Shown in pieces: positions 22,395 through 59,118 of a stretch of DNA of 60,250 nucleotides. The position numbers were made by a program, and so were the translations under genes. The DNA comes from a bacterium (GTDB taxonomy: Bacteria; Bacteroidota; Ignavibacteria; Kapaibacteriales; Kapaibacteriaceae). The stretch lies in contig DAITZZ010000008.1 in assembly GCA_036840065.1 (NCBI GenBank), positions 5,845 to 66,094 of the forward strand, given 5' to 3'. The notes below the pieces were generated by a model, which was not told where the DNA came from, ran no database searches, and saw only the letters and a list, made by a program, of their open reading frames with translations. Every line of letters starts with the position of its first letter. The stretch's first letter is position 1.

Positions 22395-22481
22395 GGAAAG
22401 GTGCAAGAGTGGTTGAATTGGCACGCCTGGAAAGCGTGTGTGCCGGCAACGGTACCGCGGGTTCGAATCCCGCCCTTTCCG
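22395..22481 (+). tRNA. tRNA-Ser, anticodon GGA; CCA not encoded
   Basis: Acceptor GGAAAGG/CCTTTCC with discriminator G; D-loop GAGTGGTTGAA; anticodon arm CACGC-ctGGAaa-GCGTG; long variable arm; T-loop GTTCGAATC. Confidence 0.96.
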
Positions 22482-22549
22482 CTAACCCATCGGGTTGGCA
22501 CGGACTTCCGTGCCGAACGGCCCAGGTTTTTGGTGTCCAAGAGTAACGC

Positions 22550-23056: not shown

Positions 23057-23464
23057 TTGAAACCCCGCAGCACTAAAGGAAGAGCCGTTCTCTGCGCGCG
23101 TATGGCGCAGGAGAAGCTTGCTCACGATATTCTGATTCTCGACCTGACGGAGATCGAGACGCCCCCTGCCGATTTCTTCGTGATCGTAACGGTGGACTCG
23201 GAGGCCCAGATCAAGGCCGTCACGGATTCGATCGAGCATACCCTCAAATCCATGGGGTTCGGTTATCCAAATCACGAAGGAAAGGGAACATCCACGTGGG
23301 TGATCCTGGATTACTTCGATGTGGTCGTGCATGTTATGCTGGCCTCGGCGCGCGAGTTCTACAAACTTGAACGTCTCTGGGGAGATGCCAAGGCCTACAC
23401 TCTCAGTCCGTCGGGTACTCCCCGCGCCACAAAGCTCACTCCGAGGAGGGCCTCAGCCGTATGA
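23057..23464 (+). CDS. rsfS: Ribosome silencing factor RsfS (Iojap)
   Basis: EKLAHDILILD, ADFFVIVT, WVILDYFDVVVHVM..REFYKLERLWGDA; TTG start is uncertain. Confidence 0.94.
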   Translation: MKPRSTKGRAVLCARMAQEKLAHDILILDLTEIETPPADFFVIVTVDSEAQIKAVTDSIEHTLKSMGFGYPNHEGKGTSTWVILDYFDVVVHVMLASAREFYKLERLWGDAKAYTLSPSGTPRATKLTPRRASAV

Positions 23465-25104
23465 TGCAGAAGTACATCGAGGCCGAACTTCAGGCAGCGT
23501 GTGTGGCCGCTGGTCTGCAGATCGACGGGCCGATACCGTTTGGCGTACCGAAGCAGCAGGGTCATGGCCACTTGTCGACCAACATTGCCATGATGCATGC
23601 GAAGCAGATCGGCAAGCAACCCCGCGCACTTGCCCAGGAGATCGTCGACGGGGTAGCCCCCTCACCACTGATCGCCAAGCTGGAGGTGGCCGGTCCGGGG
23701 TTTATCAACGTGACGTTCAGCGACGCGGTGTATCATGCCATGCTGAGAGATCTCAACCTGCTGGGTGATGAGATCGGCCGCTCGGACTGCGGCGCAGGCC
23801 GAACTGCGAATATTGAGTACGTCAGTGCCAATCCTACAGGCCCTCTGCATGCTGGCCACGGACGCAATTGCTCTGTCGGCGATACGATCGCCAATCTGCT
23901 CGCGTGGAATGGTTATGGTGTCACCCGCGAGTACTACTTCAACAACGCGGGCAATCAGATGAACATGCTTGGAAAGAGCATCTACGTTCGTCTGCAGCAC
24001 GCGCTCGGAAATTCAGACATCGAGTTTCCCGAAGACGGTTACCATGGCGAATACATCCAGGAGATTGCAACGGCCCTGGCCTCCGAGCACGGTGAGGACC
24101 TGCGGGCCATGTCCGCTGACGATGCGATGGCCTTCTGCCGGAAGGCCGGAGAAGCATGGTGTTTCGAATCGATCAAGCGAACATTGAACGCGCTCAATAT
24201 CCACCATGATGTGTACTTCAACGAGGATTCGCTGTATGGTTCCGGGAAGGTCGCAGCTACAGTGGAAGAACTTCGTCAGCGTGGCCTCGTGTACGAAAAA
24301 GATGGTGCAACGTGGTTTGCACTGACGCAAGTCGGCAATCCACAGGATAAGGTCATTATCAAGTCTACCGGGGAACCCACCTACCGCCTGCCGGACATTG
24401 CCTATCACCGCGATAAGCTGGAACGGGGCTTTGACACGGTGGTGGACATCTTCGGAGCTGATCATATTGCCACCGTGCCGGATGTACTTGCCGGTGTCAA
24501 GGCACTCGGTTTTGATACCGATCGCGTGCGCGTGGTGATCCACCAAATGGTGACGTTTGTTGAGGACGGCCAGGTTGTAAAGTTCTCAAAGCGCAGTGGT
24601 AAGTCCTTTACACTTGATGACCTTATCGAAGAGGTCGGGGCAGATGTTGTCCGCTTCTTCTTCATTATGCGGGCCGTTGGCACACACCTGGAGTTTGATC
24701 TGGGGCTGGCCAAAGAGGAGGGCGACCGCAATCCGGTGTTCTACCTGCAGTATGCGCATGCTCGTATCTGCTCGATCCTTCGCAAGGCCCACGAACGTGG
24801 TGTGACTCTCGACACCGAGGCAGATCTATCGGTCCTGATCGACGCCCGCGAGATTGAACTGATCTCCATGCTGTCGCGCTTCCGGTCGACCGTTGAGCGT
24901 GCCGCCGAAAACCTCGAGCCGCACGTGATCGCCGAGTTCCTTCGAGACCTTGCCGGGGCATACCACAACTTCTACCACGACTGCCGGATTCTGGGTGCCG
25001 AGCCGGCACTGGAGTCGGCCCGTCTTCTGCTGGCGGACGTTACGCGGCGGGCGATGCGAAACGGGTTGCTCATTCTCGGCGTCGGCACACCCGACAGGAT
25101 GTGA
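23461..25104 (+). CDS. argS: Arginine--tRNA ligase
   Basis: IEYVSANPTGPLHAGHGR (HIGH), KFSKRSG, FYLQYAHARICSI. Confidence 0.97.
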   Translation: MMQKYIEAELQAACVAAGLQIDGPIPFGVPKQQGHGHLSTNIAMMHAKQIGKQPRALAQEIVDGVAPSPLIAKLEVAGPGFINVTFSDAVYHAMLRDLNLLGDEIGRSDCGAGRTANIEYVSANPTGPLHAGHGRNCSVGDTIANLLAWNGYGVTREYYFNNAGNQMNMLGKSIYVRLQHALGNSDIEFPEDGYHGEYIQEIATALASEHGEDLRAMSADDAMAFCRKAGEAWCFESIKRTLNALNIHHDVYFNEDSLYGSGKVAATVEELRQRGLVYEKDGATWFALTQVGNPQDKVIIKSTGEPTYRLPDIAYHRDKLERGFDTVVDIFGADHIATVPDVLAGVKALGFDTDRVRVVIHQMVTFVEDGQVVKFSKRSGKSFTLDDLIEEVGADVVRFFFIMRAVGTHLEFDLGLAKEEGDRNPVFYLQYAHARICSILRKAHERGVTLDTEADLSVLIDAREIELISMLSRFRSTVERAAENLEPHVIAEFLRDLAGAYHNFYHDCRILGAEPALESARLLLADVTRRAMRNGLLILGVGTPDRM

Positions 25105-25111
25105 TCCGTTG

Positions 25112-25999
25112 ATGGTCAGCCGCGAGTACTACTACGAACTTGATGCGCGCGGCGTCCTGACGCTTGATGGGGTAGTGCAGGACAACCCATGGTTTGTTGA
25201 CTTTTTCTTCCGACGCCTTGCTCCGACGGCCAATCCCGATTATCCCGAGTATCCGTACGTGAGCCGGTGTGGAGAGGAGATGAATTACCTGCGTGTGAGC
25301 GATACACCGATCGTTTATACCGGCTACCGAGACGGTCGCCTTGAGTACGCGCACTCGCTGTCGGTGGCCTTCGCGCCTGAACGGCTCTCCTACTCGGCCG
25401 ATGGTGTTCTTTATCACTGGGCACCGGTGGGCGAGCGCGGCCGGCTCGTTCCGCATGTAGCGGTTGAGATCGCCAGGAACATAGAGCCATGGGGGCCTTA
25501 CCATGCGTACCGCCAGAGCGGCTCTTCGATCGTGGTTCCGCTGACGCCGCTCTCTCATGGCGACGACCTTCAGATCCTGCGGCCTAAGCCTGAGAATCAC
25601 TGCATTGGTTGCGGCCAGGCCAATCCCAGCTCGCTGCGGCTGAGCTTTGTGCGCAGCCGGCATGACAAGGTCGTGCGCACGTGGATCCGTCCTGACGAAA
25701 AGCTGCAGGGGGCTCTTGGGATCACCCACGGAGGTATCATCTCGCTGCTCCTCGACGAGACAATGGGCAAGACGCTCAGTGCCGTCGGGATACGCGCGCC
25801 GACAGCCAGCCTGAAGGTAGACTTCCGACGTCCGATGATGATCGGACGGGAGTACGAGGTGCGCGCGTGGATACATGCGCAACAAGGACGCAAGCAGTTC
25901 GTCAATGCCGCAGTTGTTTCGGCGGAAGATCAAACCGTGATCGCTCAGGCCGAGGCTCTGTTCCTCCAATTGCGGTCACCGACCCACGACGTCCAGTAG
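25112..25999 (+). CDS. Fusion of a DUF4505 (C8orf82-like) N-terminal domain and a PaaI-type hotdog acyl-CoA thioesterase
   Basis: N-half REYYYELDARGVLTLDG..FFFRRL..YPYVSRCGEEMNYLRVSDTPIVYT..GVLYHWAP; C-half CIGCGQANP, HGGIISLLLDETMG, TASLKVDFRRP. Start ATG 25112 lies 7 nt after the argS stop. Confidence 0.8.
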   Translation: MVSREYYYELDARGVLTLDGVVQDNPWFVDFFFRRLAPTANPDYPEYPYVSRCGEEMNYLRVSDTPIVYTGYRDGRLEYAHSLSVAFAPERLSYSADGVLYHWAPVGERGRLVPHVAVEIARNIEPWGPYHAYRQSGSSIVVPLTPLSHGDDLQILRPKPENHCIGCGQANPSSLRLSFVRSRHDKVVRTWIRPDEKLQGALGITHGGIISLLLDETMGKTLSAVGIRAPTASLKVDFRRPMMIGREYEVRAWIHAQQGRKQFVNAAVVSAEDQTVIAQAEALFLQLRSPTHDVQ

Positions 26000-26001
26000 G
26001 G

Positions 26002-27276
26002 ATGAATCAACAACCGAACTTGCTGCTCTTCGGTGCCGTTCTCGGCACCACGCTTCTTCTCATTGACCTCTACGTGCTCGGGCATTGGACGGCGTTTGCC
26101 CGCCGACGTCACCTGAACCGCTGGTGGTACCGCGTGCCGTGGGCCATTGGCGCGGTGATGTTCATTACACTCGTAACGATGCTGCTTCGACGTCACTTCT
26201 TCCGAATGGACGGCTTTGATGTCTCGCTGCTGGGCTTCGTCTCGCTCTGGTACCTTCCGAAGTTCGGGATCGCGGCGGTTCTTCTGCTGCGTGATGCCGC
26301 ACGCGGCGTTGGAGCGATGTGGACGCGGCTGCGCCGCACGACTCCCGCCGGTCCGACGATGGTGAGTGACTCACCACCGGTCGAGCCTGCGGCATCAGTC
26401 GAACCCTCCCGACGGGCATTTCTGGGCACCGCCGCATGGTCAATCTCTGCCGTTCCTTTCGTCATGGTTGGAAGGGGCATGTGGAGTACACTCTACGACT
26501 TTCAGACGCGCCGCGTCGAGCTCACCCTCGATAGGCTGCCGCGAGCTCTTGATGGTCTGCGGATCGCACAGATATCCGACGTGCACGCAGGTTCGTTTCC
26601 AGATCATCGACCATTTGAAGAGGTGCGACGCATTATTGACGCTGAGCAGGCCGACCTGGTGGTCATCACCGGTGACTTCGTCAATCAGCGTCCGGGTGAA
26701 CTGTCCATGATCTCTCGGGAACTCGAGAAACTCCGCGCCCCCTACGGTGTGATGGCGTGTCTGGGCAATCATGATCACTACAACACGCCCGAAGAGCACC
26801 GCCAGTTGAAGAGCGCGCTTCGGTCCATGGGCGTCGATCTGCTGGTGAATACCAATCGTCGCATCGGCGTGGAAGGAAGTTCGATTCTGATCGCCGGCAC
26901 TGACAATACCGGTTTTCGTCAGTCATTTGCACGAATCGACCGAGCACTGGAAGGGGTTGGCCACCAGGAGCCGGTTGTGCTGCTGGCGCACGACCCGACA
27001 TTCTGGGATCGCGAGATCGTCGGACGTCACGAGGTCGACCTCATGCTTGCCGGACACACGCACGGCGGTCAGTTTGGCGTGCAGCTGCTGGGGTTCGAAT
27101 GGAGTCCTGCGCAACATGTCTACAAGCAGTGGGCTGGTCTCTACACCAAAGGCCAGCAGCGCCTGTATGTCAACCGCGGGATCGGTACCGTGGGGCCTCC
27201 GATGCGCATCGGTATTCCACCGGAGATCACCGTGTTTACGTTGCGCTCGGCCCCCTTCGACAAGGGGCTTGCCTAA
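26002..27276 (+). CDS. Membrane-anchored metallophosphoesterase (YkuE-like) with internal twin-Arg motif
   Basis: Three TMs, then SRRAFLG; DVH, ITGDFVN, LGNHDH, LLAHDP, LAGHTHGGQ motifs. Confidence 0.9.
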   Translation: MNQQPNLLLFGAVLGTTLLLIDLYVLGHWTAFARRRHLNRWWYRVPWAIGAVMFITLVTMLLRRHFFRMDGFDVSLLGFVSLWYLPKFGIAAVLLLRDAARGVGAMWTRLRRTTPAGPTMVSDSPPVEPAASVEPSRRAFLGTAAWSISAVPFVMVGRGMWSTLYDFQTRRVELTLDRLPRALDGLRIAQISDVHAGSFPDHRPFEEVRRIIDAEQADLVVITGDFVNQRPGELSMISRELEKLRAPYGVMACLGNHDHYNTPEEHRQLKSALRSMGVDLLVNTNRRIGVEGSSILIAGTDNTGFRQSFARIDRALEGVGHQEPVVLLAHDPTFWDREIVGRHEVDLMLAGHTHGGQFGVQLLGFEWSPAQHVYKQWAGLYTKGQQRLYVNRGIGTVGPPMRIGIPPEITVFTLRSAPFDKGLA

Positions 27277-50103: not shown

Positions 50104-50886
50104 CTAGCGTCCGGTAAAGACGGCCGGCCGCTTTTCGAGGAATGCTGCCGTTCCCTCCGTGAAGTCCACGGTGCCGCACGTGCGACCGAATATGCTGGCC
50201 TCGACATGCATGCCCTCCAATGACGATGTGTCAGCTGCGGCCAGAGTGGCCTCCAGACATGCGCGAAGCGCCAGAGGGGCTTTGGCCGCCAGTGTGGCTG
50301 CGAAGGTCATCGTTGACTCGACAAGTTCTGCGGCTGGATATACCCGGTTGACCAGGCCGAGACGATGAGCCTCCTGTGCGGTGATCATATCTCCGGAAAG
50401 GATCAGCTCAAGGGCCTTGGCCATGCCGACAAGACGTGGCAATCGCTGCGTGCCTCCGTACCCCGGGATGATGCCAAGATTGATCTCCGGCTGCCCGAAC
50501 CTGGCGCTCTCGGCCGCAAAACGCATGTGGCACGCCATGGCAAGTTCGCATCCTCCGCCAAGGGCGAAGCCGTTGACAGCGGCGATGACGGGCTTGCCGA
50601 AGCGCTCGATGAGAGAGAACACCCGTTGCCCGCGTTCGGCAAACAGACGACCACTGTGGGCGTCTTGCGCATGAAGCTGCGCGATGTCTGCTCCGGCAGC
50701 AAAAGCCTTGCTGCCTGACCCCGTGATCACCACCACGTGGGTGCTCGCATCGGCCTGCAGATGCCGCAGCGTGTGCTCAAGGGCATCCAACAAATCCGCA
50801 TTGAGCGCGTTGAGCTTATCCGGGCGATTGAGCGTGATGGTCGCAACACCATCATGCTGGGCAAGGAGTATCGTGTCGTTGATCAT
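50104..50886 (-). CDS. Enoyl-CoA hydratase (crotonase)
   Basis: LNRPDKLNAL, FAAGADI, NGFALGGGCELAMAC, GQPEINLGIIPGYGGTQRL. Confidence 0.93.
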   Translation of the reverse strand: MINDTILLAQHDGVATITLNRPDKLNALNADLLDALEHTLRHLQADASTHVVVITGSGSKAFAAGADIAQLHAQDAHSGRLFAERGQRVFSLIERFGKPVIAAVNGFALGGGCELAMACHMRFAAESARFGQPEINLGIIPGYGGTQRLPRLVGMAKALELILSGDMITAQEAHRLGLVNRVYPAAELVESTMTFAATLAAKAPLALRACLEATLAAADTSSLEGMHVEASIFGRTCGTVDFTEGTAAFLEKRPAVFTGR

Positions 50887-53724: not shown

Positions 53725-54654
53725 CTACCCAGCCGTAAATGTCGATCGCGGATGAAACAGGGTGTGCACTTCCCGGACGTAGTCCCGATCGATATGCGTG
53801 TAGATCTGCGTGGTTGCAATGTCGGCATGCCCGAGCATTTCCTGGACCGCTCGCAGGTCTGCACCGCCTTCAAGTAGGTGCGTGGCAAACGAATGACGAA
53901 AAAGATGTGGATGCTGATGTGTGGTGATCACGGACTGCTGAGCTCCCTGCTGAATGATCTTCAAGACGGCCATGCGAGAGAGTCTGCGTCCGCGAGAGCT
54001 CAGAAATAACACGTCGTCCGTATCGGCAGTAGTGATCAGCTGACCACGCGCCTGCTGCTGGTAGCGTTCGATCCATGAGAGGGCCTCTGCACCGATCGGT
54101 ACGAGGCGTTCCTTGGAACCTTTACCGAAGACGCGCAGAAGTTCGACGTCGCGCATCACGTCGGACTGACGAAGAGAGATCGTTTCACTTACCCGCAGAC
54201 CGCAGGCATACATGGTCTCGAACATGGCGCGGTTGCGCAAACTGTACCGATCCTCAGCGTTGAACGCCTCGAGAAAGCCGATCATCTCCTGCACGGACAG
54301 ACACTCGGGAAGCTGCCGCCGTGGACGGGGCATGTCGATGGCTTCCGTGACATCACGGTCAAGCCGGCCATTGCCGACAAGAAAATGCTGGAGGTGCCGC
54401 ACCGAGGCCAGGTAGCGGGCGCGGCTTGTGGCCGAGAGTTCGAGTGCGGCAAGATGCTCGAAGAAGCCCCTGACGTTCTCAAGTGTGGCCTCGCAGAAGG
54501 AGCTCAGGCCCCGCTCGTGCAGGTACCCACCATACTGCGTTACGTCATGTCGATATGCCTCAGTTGTCGTTGCTGCAAGGCCCCGTTCAAGTCGCGCATA
54601 ATGAATGAACTGCTTGATGTCGCGCTCAAACGCTGCTGGAAGTTCGCGTCTCAT
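53725..54654 (-). CDS. xerD: Site-specific tyrosine recombinase XerD
   Basis: RNRAMFETMYACGLRVSE, GKGSKERLVP, HPHLFRHSFATHLLEGGADLRAVQEMLGHADIATTQIYTH. Confidence 0.93.
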   Translation of the reverse strand: MRRELPAAFERDIKQFIHYARLERGLAATTTEAYRHDVTQYGGYLHERGLSSFCEATLENVRGFFEHLAALELSATSRARYLASVRHLQHFLVGNGRLDRDVTEAIDMPRPRRQLPECLSVQEMIGFLEAFNAEDRYSLRNRAMFETMYACGLRVSETISLRQSDVMRDVELLRVFGKGSKERLVPIGAEALSWIERYQQQARGQLITTADTDDVLFLSSRGRRLSRMAVLKIIQQGAQQSVITTHQHPHLFRHSFATHLLEGGADLRAVQEMLGHADIATTQIYTHIDRDYVREVHTLFHPRSTFTAG

Positions 54655-56795
54655 GCAGCTGATTCGTCGCTGGGCCGAACTTCCATGTAGCGCACCCGTT
54701 GATGCGATGAGCCGAGCAGCGAGTTAACGAAGGATTCACGGATGAGATTCAGATCGCTGGTCGTCAGCGGCGTGTCATCCAGCTGTCCATCGGTAAATCG
54801 GTCCGTAAAGATCGAGTCGACAGCCCGTTCAATCTCCTCGCGATTGCCCGATTCGACCAGCCGGGAGAGTGCCTCGGCTGCATCGGCAAGCATGACGATC
54901 GCCGTTTCCTTTGAGTCGGGCTTCGGCCCTGGATAACGGAACTCCGCGGCATCGACCGGCGCGCCTTCGGCCTCCTCGACGGCCTTGGCATAGAAGTGCT
55001 TGATGAGGATCGTACCATGATGCATCGGAATGAACTTCCAAATCCTATCGGGAAGCCGGTACTCCCTGGCCAGATCGATTCCATCGGTGACATGCTGACG
55101 GATGATCTCGGCACTTTTACGAGGTGTCAGTCGATCATGCTTGTTGCCGATGTCGATTTGATTCTCGATGAAGTACTCGCTCTTGGTGATCTTTCCGATG
55201 TCGTGGTAGAGCGCACCAACGCGCGCAAGCAGGGGATTCGCACCGATGGCCGCAGCGGCCGTTTCGCTCAGATGCATCACCGACATCGTGTGCTGATAGG
55301 TGCCCGGGGCGACCTGGTTGAGCTGATGGATCAGAGGATGATTGATGTCGTCAAAGTCCTCCAGGCGCAGATCTGTTGCCACATTCAGCGTCCGCTCCAT
55401 GAGCAGGATCGCCGCAACGGCAAGCAGTGGAGAGATGATCGCATTGACAACCGTGCCGCCAAGCTTTGTTGCAAGGTTGAGAAGGGGCGTGCCATTCTCG
55501 AGTTCGATCGAAAGGGTAACAATCACCAGACCCGACAGGATGGCCAGGATCGAGGTGAAGATCTGTGTCCGGCTGCGCAGGTTCGTAGCCGAGTAGGCAG
55601 CCATCACGCCCCCTGCGATCATCACCACCGCGATCACGTGATCATTACCCCGGGCAGCCGCCACAGAAAGCGCACACGAGAGCGTGACAACGATAGAGGT
55701 GCGCACGTCATAGAGGATCGACACGAGCATGGCAAAGCCCGGAACGACGATCGTATACTCCAGAGGCAGAGACGTCGGCAGAGCAATCGACAGCCACCCG
55801 AGACCAGCAGAGGCAACCGGCATGGCCAGAAGAGCTGCCAGCTGGCCGTTGCGAACAAAGGACGTGTAGCGCACAAAGTACAGGTACAGGCAGACGATGG
55901 CGATCAGCACAAGGGCATGTCCGGCCGATCCGAGCGCAACGAGGAACGAAAACTGTGAGGTCGAGCGGATATACTCGGCGTAACGATAGGAGGCCAGACG
56001 ACTCAGCAGATGCTCGTCAATCCGATCGCCTTTACGAATGATAATGTCGCCCTTTCGAACGATCTCCTGCGTGATCGATACTCCCTGCTCGGCAAGGCGC
56101 TGCTGCTGCTGCCACACAGCCCGATCAAGGCGCAGCGTGGGAACAACGGATGCATGCAGACGAGCGCGCAGCACTGGCCTCAGGTTACTTGGCGCAGAGA
56201 TGAGCAGGTGATCAAGACTCTCTGCAACGGCGGCCGAATCACGCAGACGATCATGGCGGCAGGCCACGGACTCGCTCCCGTCAGCATCGAGCATCATCGG
56301 ATCTGCTCGCGGAATCTGGCGCAGATCAACGTCGACGATCTCGCCGGCATCAGCCCCATACAGACCCCGAATCGCCGGCTCAGCAATGTCCGTGATAAAC
56401 TTGTCGAGTTCGATGCTGCCATTGGACGCCGAGCCAGCCGACGACAATCGCTGCAGCGCCCGCGTCAGCGGCTCGCTTGTTCTCCGGACGTACGCAGGAA
56501 CCTGAGCGCGAGCTGCCGCACGATCCAGAGAGACCGAGTCGACGTTCCTCTGAACCGGAAACGGATAATCGGCCACCAGAGACTCTTCGGTCCATGTCGT
56601 TCCCATTCGTGAGCGATCAAACGCCGCCTGTCGGATCTCGCCAAGACGTCCGGGAAGAAACGCCATCATAAGGAGCGTTGCCACGGTGATGATCACGGCG
56701 CGCAGCGTCGACGATCGATTCAGCCCGTCCTGCGACTGAGCCTCACGTCCGTCATCGCGGATCTGTTCGAACAATGTTGGTCGATTGCGTGCCAT
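54651..56795 (-). CDS. 7TM-HD family phosphohydrolase (PgpH-like cyclic di-AMP phosphodiesterase)
   Basis: Extracellular domain, multiple TMs, then APGTYQHT, YHDIGK..YFIENQ, HHGT, FRYPGPKP, MLADAAEA. Confidence 0.88.
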   Translation of the reverse strand: MARNRPTLFEQIRDDGREAQSQDGLNRSSTLRAVIITVATLLMMAFLPGRLGEIRQAAFDRSRMGTTWTEESLVADYPFPVQRNVDSVSLDRAAARAQVPAYVRRTSEPLTRALQRLSSAGSASNGSIELDKFITDIAEPAIRGLYGADAGEIVDVDLRQIPRADPMMLDADGSESVACRHDRLRDSAAVAESLDHLLISAPSNLRPVLRARLHASVVPTLRLDRAVWQQQQRLAEQGVSITQEIVRKGDIIIRKGDRIDEHLLSRLASYRYAEYIRSTSQFSFLVALGSAGHALVLIAIVCLYLYFVRYTSFVRNGQLAALLAMPVASAGLGWLSIALPTSLPLEYTIVVPGFAMLVSILYDVRTSIVVTLSCALSVAAARGNDHVIAVVMIAGGVMAAYSATNLRSRTQIFTSILAILSGLVIVTLSIELENGTPLLNLATKLGGTVVNAIISPLLAVAAILLMERTLNVATDLRLEDFDDINHPLIHQLNQVAPGTYQHTMSVMHLSETAAAAIGANPLLARVGALYHDIGKITKSEYFIENQIDIGNKHDRLTPRKSAEIIRQHVTDGIDLAREYRLPDRIWKFIPMHHGTILIKHFYAKAVEEAEGAPVDAAEFRYPGPKPDSKETAIVMLADAAEALSRLVESGNREEIERAVDSIFTDRFTDGQLDDTPLTTSDLNLIRESFVNSLLGSSHQRVRYMEVRPSDESAA

Positions 56796-56815: not shown

Positions 56816-57607
56816 TTACCGGCCCGAAAAGTTCGGACGTCGCTTTTCAAGAAATGCCTGCACGCCCTCACGGTAATCGGCCGAATCGCCGGCGCGCTGC
56901 TGATACTCGGCCTCGAGTTCAAGCATCTCGTCGAGTGAATGCGTCAGCCCCTTCTGCAGGAGCATCTTCACAAAACCATAGGACTGCGTAGGACCCTGCG
57001 CGTATTGCGAGGCCAGCGACTGTAGTGCCGAAACAAATGCCTTCGGATGCGCGACGCTGTTGACCAGACCCATCTCGAGCGCCTGCTCGGCAGTGATCGG
57101 AGCGTTGAGTGTAGCAAACTCAAAGGCCTTGGCATAGCCCATCATGCGGGGGTAAAACCACGTGGCGCCAGAGTCGGGGATCAGGGCAATGCCGATGAAT
57201 GCTTCGACGAGTTTCGCAGATGCGCTCATTACACGCGCGTCGGCGGCAAGTGCCAGCGACAGGCCCGCACCGGCAGCCACGCCATTGATGCCGGCGATGA
57301 TCGGCTTGGGCATCTCGCGCATCAGGCGGATGATGGGATTGTAACGACGGTTGAGCGAGTCGCGCAGGTCGCGCTTGTCGCCGGACTTCGGAGCATCCTT
57401 CAGATCCTGACCGCTGCAGAAGGCCTTGCCGGCACCCGTGAGCACCACGCAACGCACATCGTCGCTGTCGCGCGCAAAGGCCAGAGCATGCTGCAGGTCG
57501 GTGGTGAGCTGCTCGTTAGCGGCATTGTAGGAATCGGGACGGTTGAGCGTGATGGTGAACACGCCACCGTCGAGACTCGTCAGCAGTGTTTCGTAGCTGG
57601 TCATCAC
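56816..57607 (-). CDS. paaG: Crotonase-fold isomerase, PaaG-like
   Basis: GKAFCSGQDL, YNPIIR, NGVAAGAGLSLALA, IALIPDSGATW, DYREGVQAFLEKR. Confidence 0.75.
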   Translation of the reverse strand: MMTSYETLLTSLDGGVFTITLNRPDSYNAANEQLTTDLQHALAFARDSDDVRCVVLTGAGKAFCSGQDLKDAPKSGDKRDLRDSLNRRYNPIIRLMREMPKPIIAGINGVAAGAGLSLALAADARVMSASAKLVEAFIGIALIPDSGATWFYPRMMGYAKAFEFATLNAPITAEQALEMGLVNSVAHPKAFVSALQSLASQYAQGPTQSYGFVKMLLQKGLTHSLDEMLELEAEYQQRAGDSADYREGVQAFLEKRRPNFSGR

Positions 57608-58386
57608 TTACCCTTCCATTCAGGTTTGCGCTTCTCGACAAATGCCGCCATGCCTTCCTTCTGGTCTTCAGTGGCAAAGAGCATGTAGAAGTTCTTGCGT
57701 TCAAATTCCAGTCCACCTTCAAGCGTGGTGCTGTGTGCCTTCAGCACAGCCTCTTTGGCCAGTCGTGCGGCGATCGGTGCCTTGGAGGCCACGTCGCCGG
57801 CAAGGGCAAAGGCTTCTTGAAGGTAGAATGCCACCGGCACAACACGATTGACCAAACCCGCTGCCTGCGCTTGGACAGCCGATATCATTCGTCCGGTTAG
57901 AACGATCTCCATCGCAAGAGCCTTGCCCACGGCGCGCGTAAGACGCTGCGTTCCGCCGGCGCCCGGCATCACACCGATGTTGATCTCCGGCTGACCGAAC
58001 TGCGCCGTATCGCTGGCAACGATCATGTCGGCATGCATCGCCAGCTCGCAGCCCCCTCCAAGTGCAAAGCCGCTCACAGCAGCGATGATGGGCGTCTTGA
58101 CCTGACGAATACGCTCCCAGCGCGCGAACTGATCACGTGCCAGCATGGTTGTGAGCGTAGCATCGGACATCTCGGTGATGTCGGCTCCGGCCGCAAATGC
58201 TTTCTCGCTCCCGTGGATGACGATGCAACGGATAGCCTCGTCGGCATCGTAGGTTTCAAAGGCCTCGACGAGCTCGATCATTGTCTGCAGACTCAACGCA
58301 TTGAGCACGGCCGGACGGTTGAGCTGGATCGCGCCGACGCCCGGCTGAGGGACGTAGGTGCGAATGCACGTAAATTCAGTGTTCAT
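57604..58386 (-). CDS. paaF: Enoyl-CoA hydratase, PaaF-like
   Basis: LNRPAVLNAL, FAAGADI, GFALGGGCELAM, GQPEINIGVMPGAGGTQRL, TEDQKEGMAAF; start moved to ATG 58386. Confidence 0.75.
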   Translation of the reverse strand: MNTEFTCIRTYVPQPGVGAIQLNRPAVLNALSLQTMIELVEAFETYDADEAIRCIVIHGSEKAFAAGADITEMSDATLTTMLARDQFARWERIRQVKTPIIAAVSGFALGGGCELAMHADMIVASDTAQFGQPEINIGVMPGAGGTQRLTRAVGKALAMEIVLTGRMISAVQAQAAGLVNRVVPVAFYLQEAFALAGDVASKAPIAARLAKEAVLKAHSTTLEGGLEFERKNFYMLFATEDQKEGMAAFVEKRKPEWKGK

Positions 58387-58413
58387 ACGCTCTGTGTTAG
58401 TGAAGGTCGAGGC

Positions 58414-58421
58414 CAAAAATA
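58414..58421 (-). promoter_or_regulatory. -7 element TATTTTTG for the paaF-paaG-7TM/HD-xerD-namZ operon
   Basis: Minus strand reads tggTATTTTTGg, ending 27 nt before ATG 58386. Confidence 0.6.
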
Positions 58422-58425
58422 CCAC

Positions 58426-59118
58426 ATGGATAACCTCTATTGCGCGCAACTTGAGAAGGGGGCTTCGGCCGTCCCGCTCGACGATGACCTGAGGCGTCAC
58501 ATTGCTGCCTTGCGGCTTCGTGAGGGGGAGCACGTGCGCGTGCTGAATGGCCGCGGACTGGTTGCCACCTGTCGGTTGCTGCGCAGTGGGCAGGGGGCAA
58601 CGCTTACGGTTGAAAACACAACCGAGCATGCCGAAGCCGTGCCGTCGATCACGGTTGCGCTTGGCGTTCTGGATCACCGGGAGCGTTTTGAGATGGCTGT
58701 CGAGAAACTCACCGAGCTCGGCGTCAGCCGAATCGTGCCGCTCGTGTGTGACCGTGCTCAGCATCTGCGCTCATCGGCTGATCGACTCCAAGCCAAGGCC
58801 ATCGCCGCCATGACGCAGTCCGGCAATCCGTTTCTGCCGGTGATCGATGCTCCCACAGCGTTGGATGCGCTTGAGATTGCCGGTGCGCTTGTGGTCATCG
58901 GCGATGCCGACGGCGAGCAATGCCACGCCGATGCGGAACATGTTCGCATGGCTGGGCGCATTGTTGTTATCGTTGGACCCGAGGGCGGGCTCTCGGAACG
59001 CGAACTTGCCAGTCTCAAGGGGCTGGCCGACACGCGGCTCTGGCGCATTGGCCAGCTGCGTCTGCGCGCCGAGACAGCTGCGGTTTCCATCGCGTCCGTT
59101 CTGCGAAGCATGTTGTAG
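58426..59118 (+). CDS. rsmE: 16S rRNA m3U1498 methyltransferase RsmE
   Basis: HIAALRLREGE..VLNGRG, EKLTELGV, IVGPEGGLSERE, IGQLRLRAETAA. Confidence 0.93.
   Translation: MDNLYCAQLEKGASAVPLDDDLRRHIAALRLREGEHVRVLNGRGLVATCRLLRSGQGATLTVENTTEHAEAVPSITVALGVLDHRERFEMAVEKLTELGVSRIVPLVCDRAQHLRSSADRLQAKAIAAMTQSGNPFLPVIDAPTALDALEIAGALVVIGDADGEQCHADAEHVRMAGRIVVIVGPEGGLSERELASLKGLADTRLWRIGQLRLRAETAAVSIASVLRSML

What the first reader, a model, noticed from the sequence alone, without database searches (positions are those of the whole stretch)
25112..25999. Bacterial DUF4505 (C8orf82-like) domain fused to a PaaI acyl-CoA thioesterase: a Rosetta-stone clue for an uncharacterised eukaryotic protein
Seen: one uninterrupted 295-aa ORF. 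Residues ~1-150 read REYYYELDARGVLTLDG..FFFRRL..YPYVSRCGEEMNYLRVSDTPIVYT..VAFAPERL..GVLYHWAP. The C-terminal half has CIGCGQANP and HGGIISLLLDETMG, typical of PaaI hotdog thioesterases. Knowledge (recalled from memory, needs verification): human C8orf82/DUF4505 reads roughly REYFYYVDHQGQLFLD..FFSRL..FPFLSPCGRERNFLRCEDRPVVFT..PFEP.RL..GRLYHPAP. It is known to me as a mainly eukaryotic protein of unknown function, predicted mitochondrial. Inference: the fusion suggests DUF4505 acts in acyl-CoA metabolism. The gene follows argS and precedes a metallophosphoesterase, and three crotonases lie elsewhere in the window. I do not recall a description of this fusion.
Basis: partly seen in the sequence, partly recalled or inferred. 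Interest (0 to 1): 0.8.

Follow-up and report, generated by a model that had tools for sequence, protein, structure and literature searches.

The report
DUF4505 fused to THEM4-like thioesterase
A freshwater Kapabacteria-type bacterium encodes one protein that joins a domain related to the uncharacterised human mitochondrial protein C8orf82 to an acyl-CoA thioesterase resembling human THEM4/THEM5, which gives a testable but unproven hint that C8orf82 works with CoA thioesters.

Summary
Window 25112-25999 (+) is a real 295-aa gene. Residues 3-124 match Pfam DUF4505 (65.6 bits, cutoff 27.3) and residues 203-276 match the 4HBT hotdog family (39.2 bits, cutoff 20.6).

The fusion is not an artefact. 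I collected 148 fused sequences at 32-96% identity. It is in one frame in all 38 GTDB species found of the window's clade.

The thioesterase half is not PaaI proper. Its closest solved relatives are human mitochondrial THEM4 and THEM5. The positions aligned to THEM4's catalytic Asp and Thr, the HGG motif and a CxxC pair are invariant in all 148.

A profile of the bacterial N-domains retrieves vertebrate C8orf82 (E 4e-19). Its predicted fold matches only DUF1285, a proposed nucleotide-ligand binder.

Extra hints at a CoA link are a DUF4505-GNAT fusion in a spirochaete, a CoA-transferase neighbour in Leptospiraceae, and a published prediction linking C8orf82 to the ETF complex. Gene neighbourhoods are otherwise inconsistent, and nothing shows ligand binding.

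Verdict: a well-supported Rosetta-stone lead. It is annotated piecemeal in databases but described in no searchable paper. The functional inference remains an inference.

The parts
25112..25999 (+). Complete gene for the 295-aa DUF4505 + hotdog thioesterase fusion protein (stop codon included)
   Evidence: ORF and translation; two Pfam domains above cutoff; 85 same-architecture clusters; AF2 model with pLDDT 94.6 and pTM 0.86
25118..25483 (+). DUF4505 (PF14956) HMM match, residues 3-124. The predicted structural domain continues to about residue 146 (window 25549).
   Evidence: 65.6 bits. The N-domain model has pLDDT 94.8. Its only significant PDB fold matches are DUF1285 structures 2re3 and 2ra9, TM 0.61-0.64. 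The bacterial profile retrieves vertebrate C8orf82.
25259..25285 (+). Most conserved DUF4505 motif, V50-S-R-C53-G-E-E56-M-N58. E56 is invariant family-wide. C53 and N58 are at least 90% conserved in the family alignment A5 (C53 127/148 and N58 114/148 among fused sequences).
   Evidence: Alignments A1, A2 and A5; counts over 148 fused sequences
25601..25612 (+). CxxC pair (C164-I-G-C167) in the segment leading into the hotdog domain, followed by the xxNP motif
   Evidence: C164 and C167 are invariant in 148 of 148 fused sequences. The same motif is present in the standalone bacterial hotdog 2prx.
25718..25939 (+). 4HBT (PF03061) hotdog thioesterase HMM match, residues 203-276
   Evidence: Best PDB sequence hits are THEM4 (E 9e-11) and THEM5 (E 1e-7). 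Best fold hits are THEM4, 2ov9 and THEM5.
25727..25804 (+). Catalytic stretch H206-G207-G208 ... D215 ... T231. These align with THEM4 construct positions 113, 114, 122 and 138, inferred to be His152, Gly153, Asp161 and Thr177.
   Evidence: HMMER alignments. All five positions are invariant in 148 of 148 fused sequences. The catalytic role of THEM4 Asp161 and Thr177 is recalled from memory, and the paper could not be retrieved.
23461..25104 (+). argS (arginyl-tRNA synthetase), ending 7 nt upstream; probably the same transcription unit, preceded by rsfS at 23057-23464
   Evidence: Pfam. Synteny is conserved in all 38 GTDB species found of the clade.
26002..27276 (+). Membrane metallophosphoesterase (4TM_phosphoesterase + Metallophos) starting 2 nt after the fusion's stop codon. 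It is the most tightly attached neighbour within the clade.
   Evidence: Pfam; precomputed domains in related loci. It lies directly downstream of the fusion in every locus of the clade: typically 2-30 nt, 139 nt in L045 (tblastn HSP limits, so approximate).

Best explanation
The gene encodes a two-domain cytoplasmic enzyme. Shown: the C-terminal half is a THEM4/THEM5-type hotdog-fold thioesterase with a complete catalytic set (an HGG motif, plus the Asp and Thr that align with THEM4's catalytic residues). The N-terminal half is a true member of the DUF4505/UPF0598 (C8orf82) family, with a confident predicted fold resembling DUF1285. Inferred: the enzyme hydrolyses acyl-CoA (or acyl-phosphopantetheine) thioesters as a hotdog dimer or tetramer. 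The DUF4505 domain would be a non-catalytic or accessory ligand-binding module that recognises the nucleotide/pantetheine part or the acyl part of the substrate, or an effector, and so selects, delivers or gates substrate for the thioesterase. By Rosetta-stone logic, standalone DUF4505 proteins, including human mitochondrial C8orf82, would act on or with CoA-thioester enzymes; THEM4/THEM5 and the ETF/beta-oxidation system are the obvious candidates. In this lineage the gene is a conserved housekeeping gene in the block rsfS-argS-fusion-membrane phosphoesterase.
For: Both domains score above Pfam cutoffs. The AF2 model is confident: pLDDT 94.6, pTM 0.86 for the whole chain, which suggests a defined domain arrangement. 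THEM4 and THEM5 are the top hits by sequence and by fold. H206, G207, G208, D215 and T231 are invariant in 148 fused sequences spanning 32-96% identity, so the thioesterase is under purifying selection together with the N-domain. The fusion is kept in one frame in all 38 GTDB species found of the clade. It also occurs in at least 17 representatives at 50% identity, including lineages with quite different neighbourhoods. The bacterial N-domain profile retrieves vertebrate C8orf82 at E 4e-19. A second, independent fusion joins DUF4505 to another CoA-thioester enzyme, a GNAT acyltransferase, in a Spirochaetales MAG. The standalone Leptospiraceae copy sits next to a family-III CoA-transferase, with a thiolase nearby. 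The DUF4505 fold matches only DUF1285, for which a nucleotide-based ligand in a conserved cleft and Nudix neighbours were proposed (PMC2954208). A coevolution/deep-learning interactome preprint links C8orf82 to the electron-transfer-flavoprotein complex, which accepts electrons from acyl-CoA dehydrogenases.
Against: No ligand binding or enzyme activity was tested. Gene neighbourhoods are not consistently about CoA or lipids: argS and a phosphoesterase in this lineage, dtd in another, an ABC-F gene in a third, and AhpC-like plus NAPRTase in a fourth. A standalone copy sits beside a glycosyltransferase and a rhodanese. The GNAT fusion is one small cluster, and the CoA-transferase adjacency is one lineage. 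DUF4505 has an invariant Glu and highly conserved Cys, Asn, His and Arg, which looks more like an active site than the DUF1285 cleft, where no strictly conserved residues were found. The domain may therefore be catalytic rather than a passive binder. The DUF1285 link is seen only in structure; there is no sequence signal. I had no access to model coordinates or PAE, so I could not check whether the conserved N-domain face points at the thioesterase active site.
Confidence: 0.55

Rival explanations
1. Redox-gated thioesterase. DUF4505 (conserved Cys53) and the invariant CxxC ahead of the hotdog domain would form a thiol switch that turns the thioesterase on or off under oxidative stress. DUF4505 would then be a redox-sensing module rather than a CoA-binding one.
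For: C164 and C167 are invariant in 148 of 148 fused sequences and C53 is present in 127 of 148. A thioredoxin-fold AhpC/Redoxin gene (CNHCPYV motif) lies divergently next to the fusion in eight loci representing seven distinct arrangements of the window's clade (L003/L004, L040, L044, L045, L046, L049, L050) and in the distant P0084 lineage. The DUF1285 paper proposed signalling under oxidative stress. PMC5814406 carried that idea over to C8orf82.
Against: The AhpC-like gene is absent from this window and from most loci of the clade. The P0249 lineage lacks Cys53 but keeps the fusion. The CxxC motif also occurs in standalone bacterial hotdog proteins that have no DUF4505. The oxidative-stress idea for DUF1285 was itself speculative.
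Confidence: 0.15
2. DUF4505 is itself an enzyme acting on the same pathway intermediate, so the protein is bifunctional, with the hotdog domain releasing or editing a thioester product. An exotic version is a link to translation quality control, for example hydrolysis of aminoacyl-CoA or aminoacyl-pantetheine thioesters made as side products by aminoacyl-tRNA synthetases.
For: There is an invariant Glu56 with highly conserved Arg4, Tyr8, Cys53, Asn58, Asp64 and His102 across bacteria and eukaryotes. Three of the four fusion lineages examined have an immediate neighbour related to translation: argS and rsfS, dtd overlapping by 17 nt or separated by 1 nt, and an ABC-F gene. That aminoacyl-tRNA synthetases can aminoacylate CoA is recalled from memory (Jakubowski 1998) and was not checked here.
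Against: No known catalytic fold or motif matches. The PDB fold search gives only DUF1285, which has no known activity. Translation genes are common housekeeping neighbours and I chose the category after seeing the data. Standalone copies show no such neighbours.
Confidence: 0.12
3. DUF4505 is a protein-protein adaptor or assembly-factor domain, for example for a flavoprotein partner such as ETF. The fusion to a thioesterase would be a lineage-specific convenience that says little about the eukaryotic protein's biochemistry.
For: The interactome preprint groups C8orf82 with candidate assembly factors and links it to components or assembly factors of the ETF complex. One eukaryote-type protein carries an LYR-like N-terminal domain fused to DUF4505. 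From general knowledge, LYR proteins are adaptors, and ETFRF1/LYRM5 regulates ETF. Contexts are variable.
Against: The fusion is maintained, with all catalytic residues intact, down to 32% identity and in several lineages, which argues for a direct functional coupling. The LYR match is below the Pfam cutoff (21 bits against 24.8) and does not recur outside one small cluster. No etfA or etfB genes were seen next to any bacterial copy.
Confidence: 0.13

Closest known systems
Human THEM4 (CTMP1) and THEM5 (CTMP2/ACOT15), mitochondrial type-II hotdog acyl-CoA thioesterases (PDB 4gah, 4ae8, 4ae7)
   Same: They are the best sequence matches (E 9e-11 and 1e-7 over about 92-99 residues) and the best fold matches (Foldseek E about 7e-11, TM 0.72 on the target) to the C-terminal half. 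The HGG motif, the catalytic-position Asp and Thr, and the GRK motif align.
   Different: THEM4 and THEM5 carry a mitochondrial presequence and a short N-terminal region, not a DUF4505 domain. No CxxC motif shows up in the aligned THEM4 or THEM5 stretch. The activity and chain-length preference of the bacterial protein are untested.
UPF0598 protein C8orf82 / Pfam DUF4505 (PF14956)
   Same: Residues 3-124 score 65.6 bits against a cutoff of 27.3. The bacterial profile retrieves the duck C8orf82 orthologue at E 4e-19. Pairwise identity is 42% over 76 aa. Signature motifs are shared: REYFY, FLxFFFxRL, YPxxSxCGxExNY and GxLYH.
   Different: The eukaryotic proteins are standalone, usually with an N-terminal presequence and a 7-11-residue insertion after the first hairpin. 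Here the domain is fused to an enzyme and starts at residue 1.
DUF1285 (PF06938) structural-genomics proteins SPO0140 (2re3) and Sbal_2486 (2ra9)
   Same: They are the only significant PDB fold matches to the N-domain model (E 4e-6 to 2e-5, TM 0.61-0.64, 124-144 aligned columns). The literature proposes a nucleotide-type ligand in a conserved cleft and notes Nudix neighbours.
   Different: There is no detectable sequence similarity. DUF1285 lacks strictly conserved residues, whereas DUF4505 has an invariant Glu and several near-invariant polar residues. Whether the Nudix neighbour of DUF1285 is a CoA pyrophosphatase is my recollection only and was not tested.
PaaI / THEM2 (ACOT13) clade of hotdog thioesterases
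   Same: Same superfamily and the same position for the catalytic Asp at the start of the central helix. The fold matches at E about 1e-8 to 1e-7.
   Different: It fails the PaaI equivalog model (20.5 bits against 118.9) and TIGR00369 (27.8 against 36.6). PaaI sequences match only at E about 0.5. There is no phenylacetate-degradation gene context.

Membership tests
Pfam DUF4505 (PF14956) / UPF0598 C8orf82 family | HMM score above the curated gathering cutoff | tested here: met
   65.6 bits (68.0 for the N-half alone) against a cutoff of 27.3, covering profile positions 9-150 of 177
Pfam DUF4505 (PF14956) / UPF0598 C8orf82 family | Demonstrable homology to a named vertebrate C8orf82 orthologue | tested here: met
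   The bacterial N-domain profile hits P0219, 'UPF0598 protein C8orf82 homolog [Aythya fuligula]', at E 4.4e-19. BLASTP gives 42% identity over 76 aa, E 1e-15.
Pfam DUF4505 (PF14956) / UPF0598 C8orf82 family | Same biochemical function as the eukaryotic protein | not testable with these tools
   The function of C8orf82 is unknown. The literature offers only an interactome prediction and a CRISPR-screen hit.
Hotdog-fold 4HBT thioesterase superfamily (PF03061) | HMM score above cutoff and a hotdog fold | tested here: met
   39.2 bits against 20.6. Foldseek returns 519 PDB matches at E <= 0.001; all 50 top-ranked matches listed are hotdog thioesterases.
THEM4/THEM5-like acyl-CoA thioesterases | Catalytic Asp on the central helix, Thr on the following strand, and an HGG backbone motif | tested here: met
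   D215, T231 and H206-G207-G208 align with THEM4 construct positions 122, 138 and 113-115 and are invariant in 148 of 148 fused sequences. The mapping to Asp161 and Thr177 and their catalytic role rest on an inferred numbering offset and on memory.
THEM4/THEM5-like acyl-CoA thioesterases | Acyl-CoA hydrolase activity | not testable with these tools
   Requires an enzyme assay
PaaI (TIGR02286 equivalog, phenylacetyl-CoA pathway thioesterase) | Score above the equivalog cutoff; paa operon context | tested here: not met
   20.5 bits against 118.9. The neighbours are rsfS, argS, a metallophosphoesterase and an M20 peptidase, with no paa genes.
DUF1285 (PF06938) | Sequence-profile membership | tested here: not met
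   No PF06938 hit at E <= 1. DUF4505 profiles do not hit 2re3 or 2ra9 at E <= 10.
DUF1285 (PF06938) | Shared three-dimensional fold | tested here: met
   Foldseek E 4.2e-6 to 1.6e-5, probability 1.00, TM 0.61-0.64. The next-best hits are at E > 0.1. This rests on a predicted model, not a solved structure.

The most novel reading that the evidence does not exclude
DUF4505 is a previously unrecognised CoA- or acyl-phosphopantetheine-recognising module, distantly related in fold to DUF1285. Human C8orf82 would then be a mitochondrial acyl-CoA or acyl-ACP sensor or delivery factor that works with THEM4/THEM5 or the ETF/beta-oxidation machinery. That would assign a first biochemical role to a conserved 'dark' mitochondrial protein found across eukaryotes.
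Probability: 0.35. Interest if true: 0.75.

Novelty: new variant of a known kind. Interest (0 to 1): 0.55.

Why it matters
C8orf82 (UPF0598) is conserved from protists to humans, is listed in mitochondrial proteomes, and has no assigned biochemical function. A natural, strongly conserved fusion to a THEM4/THEM5-type thioesterase, together with a separate GNAT fusion, narrows the hypothesis space to CoA-thioester chemistry. It also names concrete human partners to test: THEM4, THEM5 and ETF. The finding ties DUF4505 by fold to DUF1285, another orphan family with solved structures, so a result on one could inform the other. For the bacterium itself the finding is ordinary: a housekeeping thioesterase with an accessory domain.

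Tried and rejected
(1) Sequence-level link between DUF4505 and DUF1285: none. The Pfam scan at E <= 1 and the profile searches of PDB at E <= 10 found nothing.

The accepted scan used a clade-specific peptide pattern, so it counts only the window's own clade (38 species) and is not a census of all prokaryotic DUF4505.

(3) Single origin of the fusion: neighbour-joining trees of the 140-column domain do not resolve it. In one tree the fused sequences sit together in the leaf order. In a bootstrapped tree they intermix with standalone prokaryote-type copies, giving 0 of 60 replicates for an exclusive clade. An earlier run was invalid because of a distance-formula overflow, and one timed out.

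(4) Recurrence of the LYR-DUF4505 fusion: not found outside its own cluster, and the LYR hit is below cutoff, so it counts only as a hint. The Coq4-DUF4505 protein P0180 looks like a gene-model merge with an unspliced intron and was discounted.

(5) A consistent neighbour theme for standalone copies: none. Two apparent 'standalone' copies turned out to be eukaryotic.

(6) Primary paper for the THEM4 catalytic residues: not retrievable, so that point rests on memory plus the alignment.

(7) Taxon names for the other fusion lineages: the sources give none.

(8) Model coordinates and PAE are not exposed, so the interdomain interface could not be analysed.

(9) The crotonases as context: rejected, since they are 24-33 kb away on the opposite strand.
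Full report
**Observation.** Pfam places DUF4505 (PF14956) on residues 3-124 at 65.6 bits against a cutoff of 27.3. It places the hotdog family 4HBT (PF03061) on residues 203-276 at 39.2 bits against a cutoff of 20.6, and each half scores independently. GC3 of the frame is 0.70, like its neighbours. The gene starts 7 nt after argS. It ends 2 nt before the most likely start (ATG 26002) of a membrane metallophosphoesterase.

**The fusion is real and old.** A search of 5.8 billion proteins returned 85 clusters with the same two-domain architecture at 41-96% identity. NCBI names them 'DUF4505 family protein' and JGI names them 'acyl-CoA thioesterase PaaI-like protein'. A scan of GTDB species representatives found 38 species, mostly labelled Candidatus Kapaibacterium, Ignavibacteria or Melioribacter. 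One of them, MAG RE-18aug17-124 (locus L015), is 98% identical to the window. In all 38 the two halves lie in one frame. The block S66 peptidase, LytR_C, rsfS, argS, fusion, metallophosphoesterase, M20 peptidase, dapF and IMPase is conserved. An exhaustive HMMER search with a profile of the N-domain alone found 916 relatives among 1.84 billion representatives. These include at least 17 further fused representatives at the 50% identity level. Across the 148 fused sequences I collected, identity to the window ranges from 32% to 96%.

**The thioesterase half.** It is not PaaI in the strict sense. The PaaI equivalog scores 20.5 bits against a cutoff of 118.9, and TIGR00369 scores 27.8 against 36.6. 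The closest solved proteins by sequence are human THEM4 (E 9e-11) and THEM5 (E 1e-7). The closest by fold are THEM4, the Rhodococcus protein 2ov9 and THEM5, ahead of THEM2 and PaaI. In the HMMER alignment, H206-G207-G208, D215 and T231 fall on THEM4 construct positions 113-115, 122 and 138. With an inferred offset of 39 these are His152/Gly153, Asp161 and Thr177. I recall those as the catalytic residues of THEM4, but I could not retrieve the paper. All five positions, together with E216, K220 and a CxxC pair (C164, C167) just before the domain, are invariant in all 148 fused sequences. I infer an active thioesterase. THEM4 and THEM5 are both mitochondrial (PMC11258604).

**The DUF4505 half.** The bacterial profile retrieves a protein named 'UPF0598 protein C8orf82 homolog' from a duck at E 4e-19. 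Family-wide, Y8, G14, E56 and F87 are invariant. R4, Y6, S51, C53, N58, V68, G98 and H102 are at least 90% conserved. AlphaFold models are confident for the whole protein (pLDDT 94.6, pTM 0.86) and for the N-domain alone (pLDDT 94.8). A PDB fold search with the N-domain gives only three significant hits, all of them DUF1285 structures (2re3 and 2ra9; E 4e-6 to 2e-5, TM 0.61-0.64). Everything else is at E > 0.1. There is no sequence-level signal for that relationship. The DUF1285 paper proposed a nucleotide-based ligand in a conserved cleft and noted Nudix hydrolases next to most family members (PMC2954208). A 2018 paper had already threaded C8orf82 onto that fold (PMC5814406). No structure of DUF4505 itself has been solved.

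**Distribution and other architectures.** DUF4505 occurs in three forms:
- fused to the hotdog domain;
- as standalone proteins of about 145-170 aa that start at residue 1 and group with the fused forms (for example in Leptospiraceae);
- as eukaryote-type proteins with presequence-like extensions and a short insertion.

Some 'standalone' hits are in fact eukaryotic. It is therefore not an essentially eukaryotic family.

Pfam scans of the unusually long members found these architectures:
- A DUF4505-GNAT acyltransferase fusion in a Spirochaetales MAG on a 1.07 Mb contig. This is a second, independent fusion to an enzyme that uses acyl-CoA.
- An LYR-like domain fused to DUF4505 in a eukaryote-type contig. 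The LYR hit is below cutoff and does not recur outside one cluster, so it is only a hint.
- A Coq4-fragment fusion that looks like a gene-model merge.

**Genomic context.** Within the window's clade the neighbours are housekeeping genes. The tightest link is to the downstream membrane phosphoesterase. Other fused lineages differ:
- In one, the fusion directly follows dtd, overlapping by 17 nt or separated by 1 nt, with meaB nearby.
- In another, it sits divergently from an ABC-F gene, with an acyl-CoA dehydrogenase three genes away.
- In a third, it lies between a divergent AhpC/Redoxin gene and NAPRTase.

The same AhpC-like gene (CNHCPYV motif) is inserted between argS and the fusion in the more divergent members of the window's clade. 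The standalone Leptospiraceae copy follows a family-III CoA-transferase, with a thiolase nearby. Another standalone copy sits between a glycosyltransferase and a rhodanese. No single partner is universal.

**Literature.** 'DUF4505' appears in no searchable paper. 'C8orf82' appears in 39, none of them functional. The most relevant are an interactome preprint that links C8orf82 to components or assembly factors of the ETF complex and a CRISPR screen in which loss of C8orf82 partly restored apoptosis in BAX/MARCHF5 double-knockout cells. Among the top-ranked results of two co-mention searches (20 of 67 and 12 of 145 papers listed), none mentions C8orf82 together with THEM4, THEM5, ETFRF1 or acyl-CoA thioesterases.

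**Interpretation.** It is shown that this is a natural, strongly conserved two-domain protein combining a C8orf82-family domain with a catalytically intact THEM4/5-like hotdog. It is inferred that the enzyme hydrolyses acyl-CoA-type thioesters. It is also inferred that DUF4505 is an accessory ligand-binding or gating module for the nucleotide/pantetheine or acyl part of the substrate, so that standalone DUF4505 proteins, human C8orf82 included, act with CoA-thioester enzymes. I put this at about 0.55.

The rivals are:
- a thiol-redox switch, supported by the invariant CxxC, the conserved Cys53 and the recurrent AhpC-like neighbour;
- a catalytic DUF4505, supported by the invariant Glu and the conserved polar constellation, possibly tied to translation quality control given the argS, dtd and ABC-F neighbours;
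- a pure protein-adaptor role, as the ETF prediction suggests.

None is excluded.

**Novelty and score.** The architecture is recorded in databases, with each annotation pipeline naming only one half. I found no paper that describes it. The sharper pairing with mitochondrial THEM4/THEM5, the GNAT fusion and the recurrent AhpC-like neighbour appear to be new observations. As a kind of system it is a known enzyme fold with a new accessory domain, so I rate it a new variant of a known kind. Its value is as a concrete, cheap-to-test lead for a dark human mitochondrial protein. Interest is 0.55.

Noticed in passing
L003 5399-5959 (-), L005 5413-5976 (-); also L040, L044, L045, L046, L049, L050: A thioredoxin-fold AhpC-TSA/Redoxin gene of about 186 aa (motif F[MI]CNHCPYV) lies divergently, immediately upstream of the fusion. 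This is seen in eight loci (seven distinct arrangements) of the window's clade and in the distant P0084 lineage, with about 50% identity between the lineages. It is absent from this window. Together with the invariant CxxC pair, it hints at a redox link.
   Followed up: partly
P0109 (Spirochaetales MAG, MBE7439628.1): An independent fusion of DUF4505 (N-terminal) to a GNAT acetyltransferase domain (residues about 207-325), found on a 1.07 Mb bacterial contig. This is a second case of DUF4505 joined to an enzyme that uses acyl-CoA.
   Followed up: partly
P0194 (ENA, 497 kb contig); P0180 (Logan, 25 kb contig): Two eukaryote-type proteins carry extra N-terminal parts ahead of DUF4505. One has an LYR-motif-like domain (21 bits, below the Pfam cutoff) and does not recur outside its own cluster. 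The other has a Coq4 C-terminal fragment and looks like an unspliced gene-model merge.
   Followed up: partly
L012 5272-6625; L014 5547-6891: In the P0237/P0239 lineage the fusion gene overlaps dtd (D-Tyr-tRNA deacylase) by 17 nt or follows it by 1 nt. With argS and rsfS in the window's clade and an ABC-F gene in the P0249 lineage, three of the four fused lineages examined have a translation-related immediate neighbour. This is unexplained.
   Followed up: no
P0089 (JGI, 281 aa): A DUF4505 domain is followed by about 140 residues with no Pfam hit and none of the HGG, Asp or Thr catalytic motifs. It may be a degenerate, inactive hotdog domain.
   Followed up: no
L017, L018, L029, L031, L032, L045, L050: Several GenBank MAG records that carry the Kapabacteria-type syntenic block are titled with unrelated taxa (Chitinophaga pinensis, Patescibacteria group, Hyphomicrobiales, Didemnitutus, Bradyrhizobiaceae). 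These are probably taxonomic mislabels or binning errors.
   Followed up: no
window 22395-22482 (+): tRNA-Ser (anticodon GGA) lies between the LD-carboxypeptidase gene and the LytR_C gene. It is the only Rfam or ARAGORN hit in the window.
   Followed up: yes
window 56816-58764 (-), 50104-50886 (-), 53725-54654 (-), 54651-56795 (-): Two tandem enoyl-CoA hydratase genes; one is 386 aa, with an unannotated N-terminal extension of about 140 aa. A third crotonase lies 6 kb away. A tyrosine recombinase (XerC/D-type, Phage_integrase) and a 7TM-HD receptor lie between them.
   Followed up: partly
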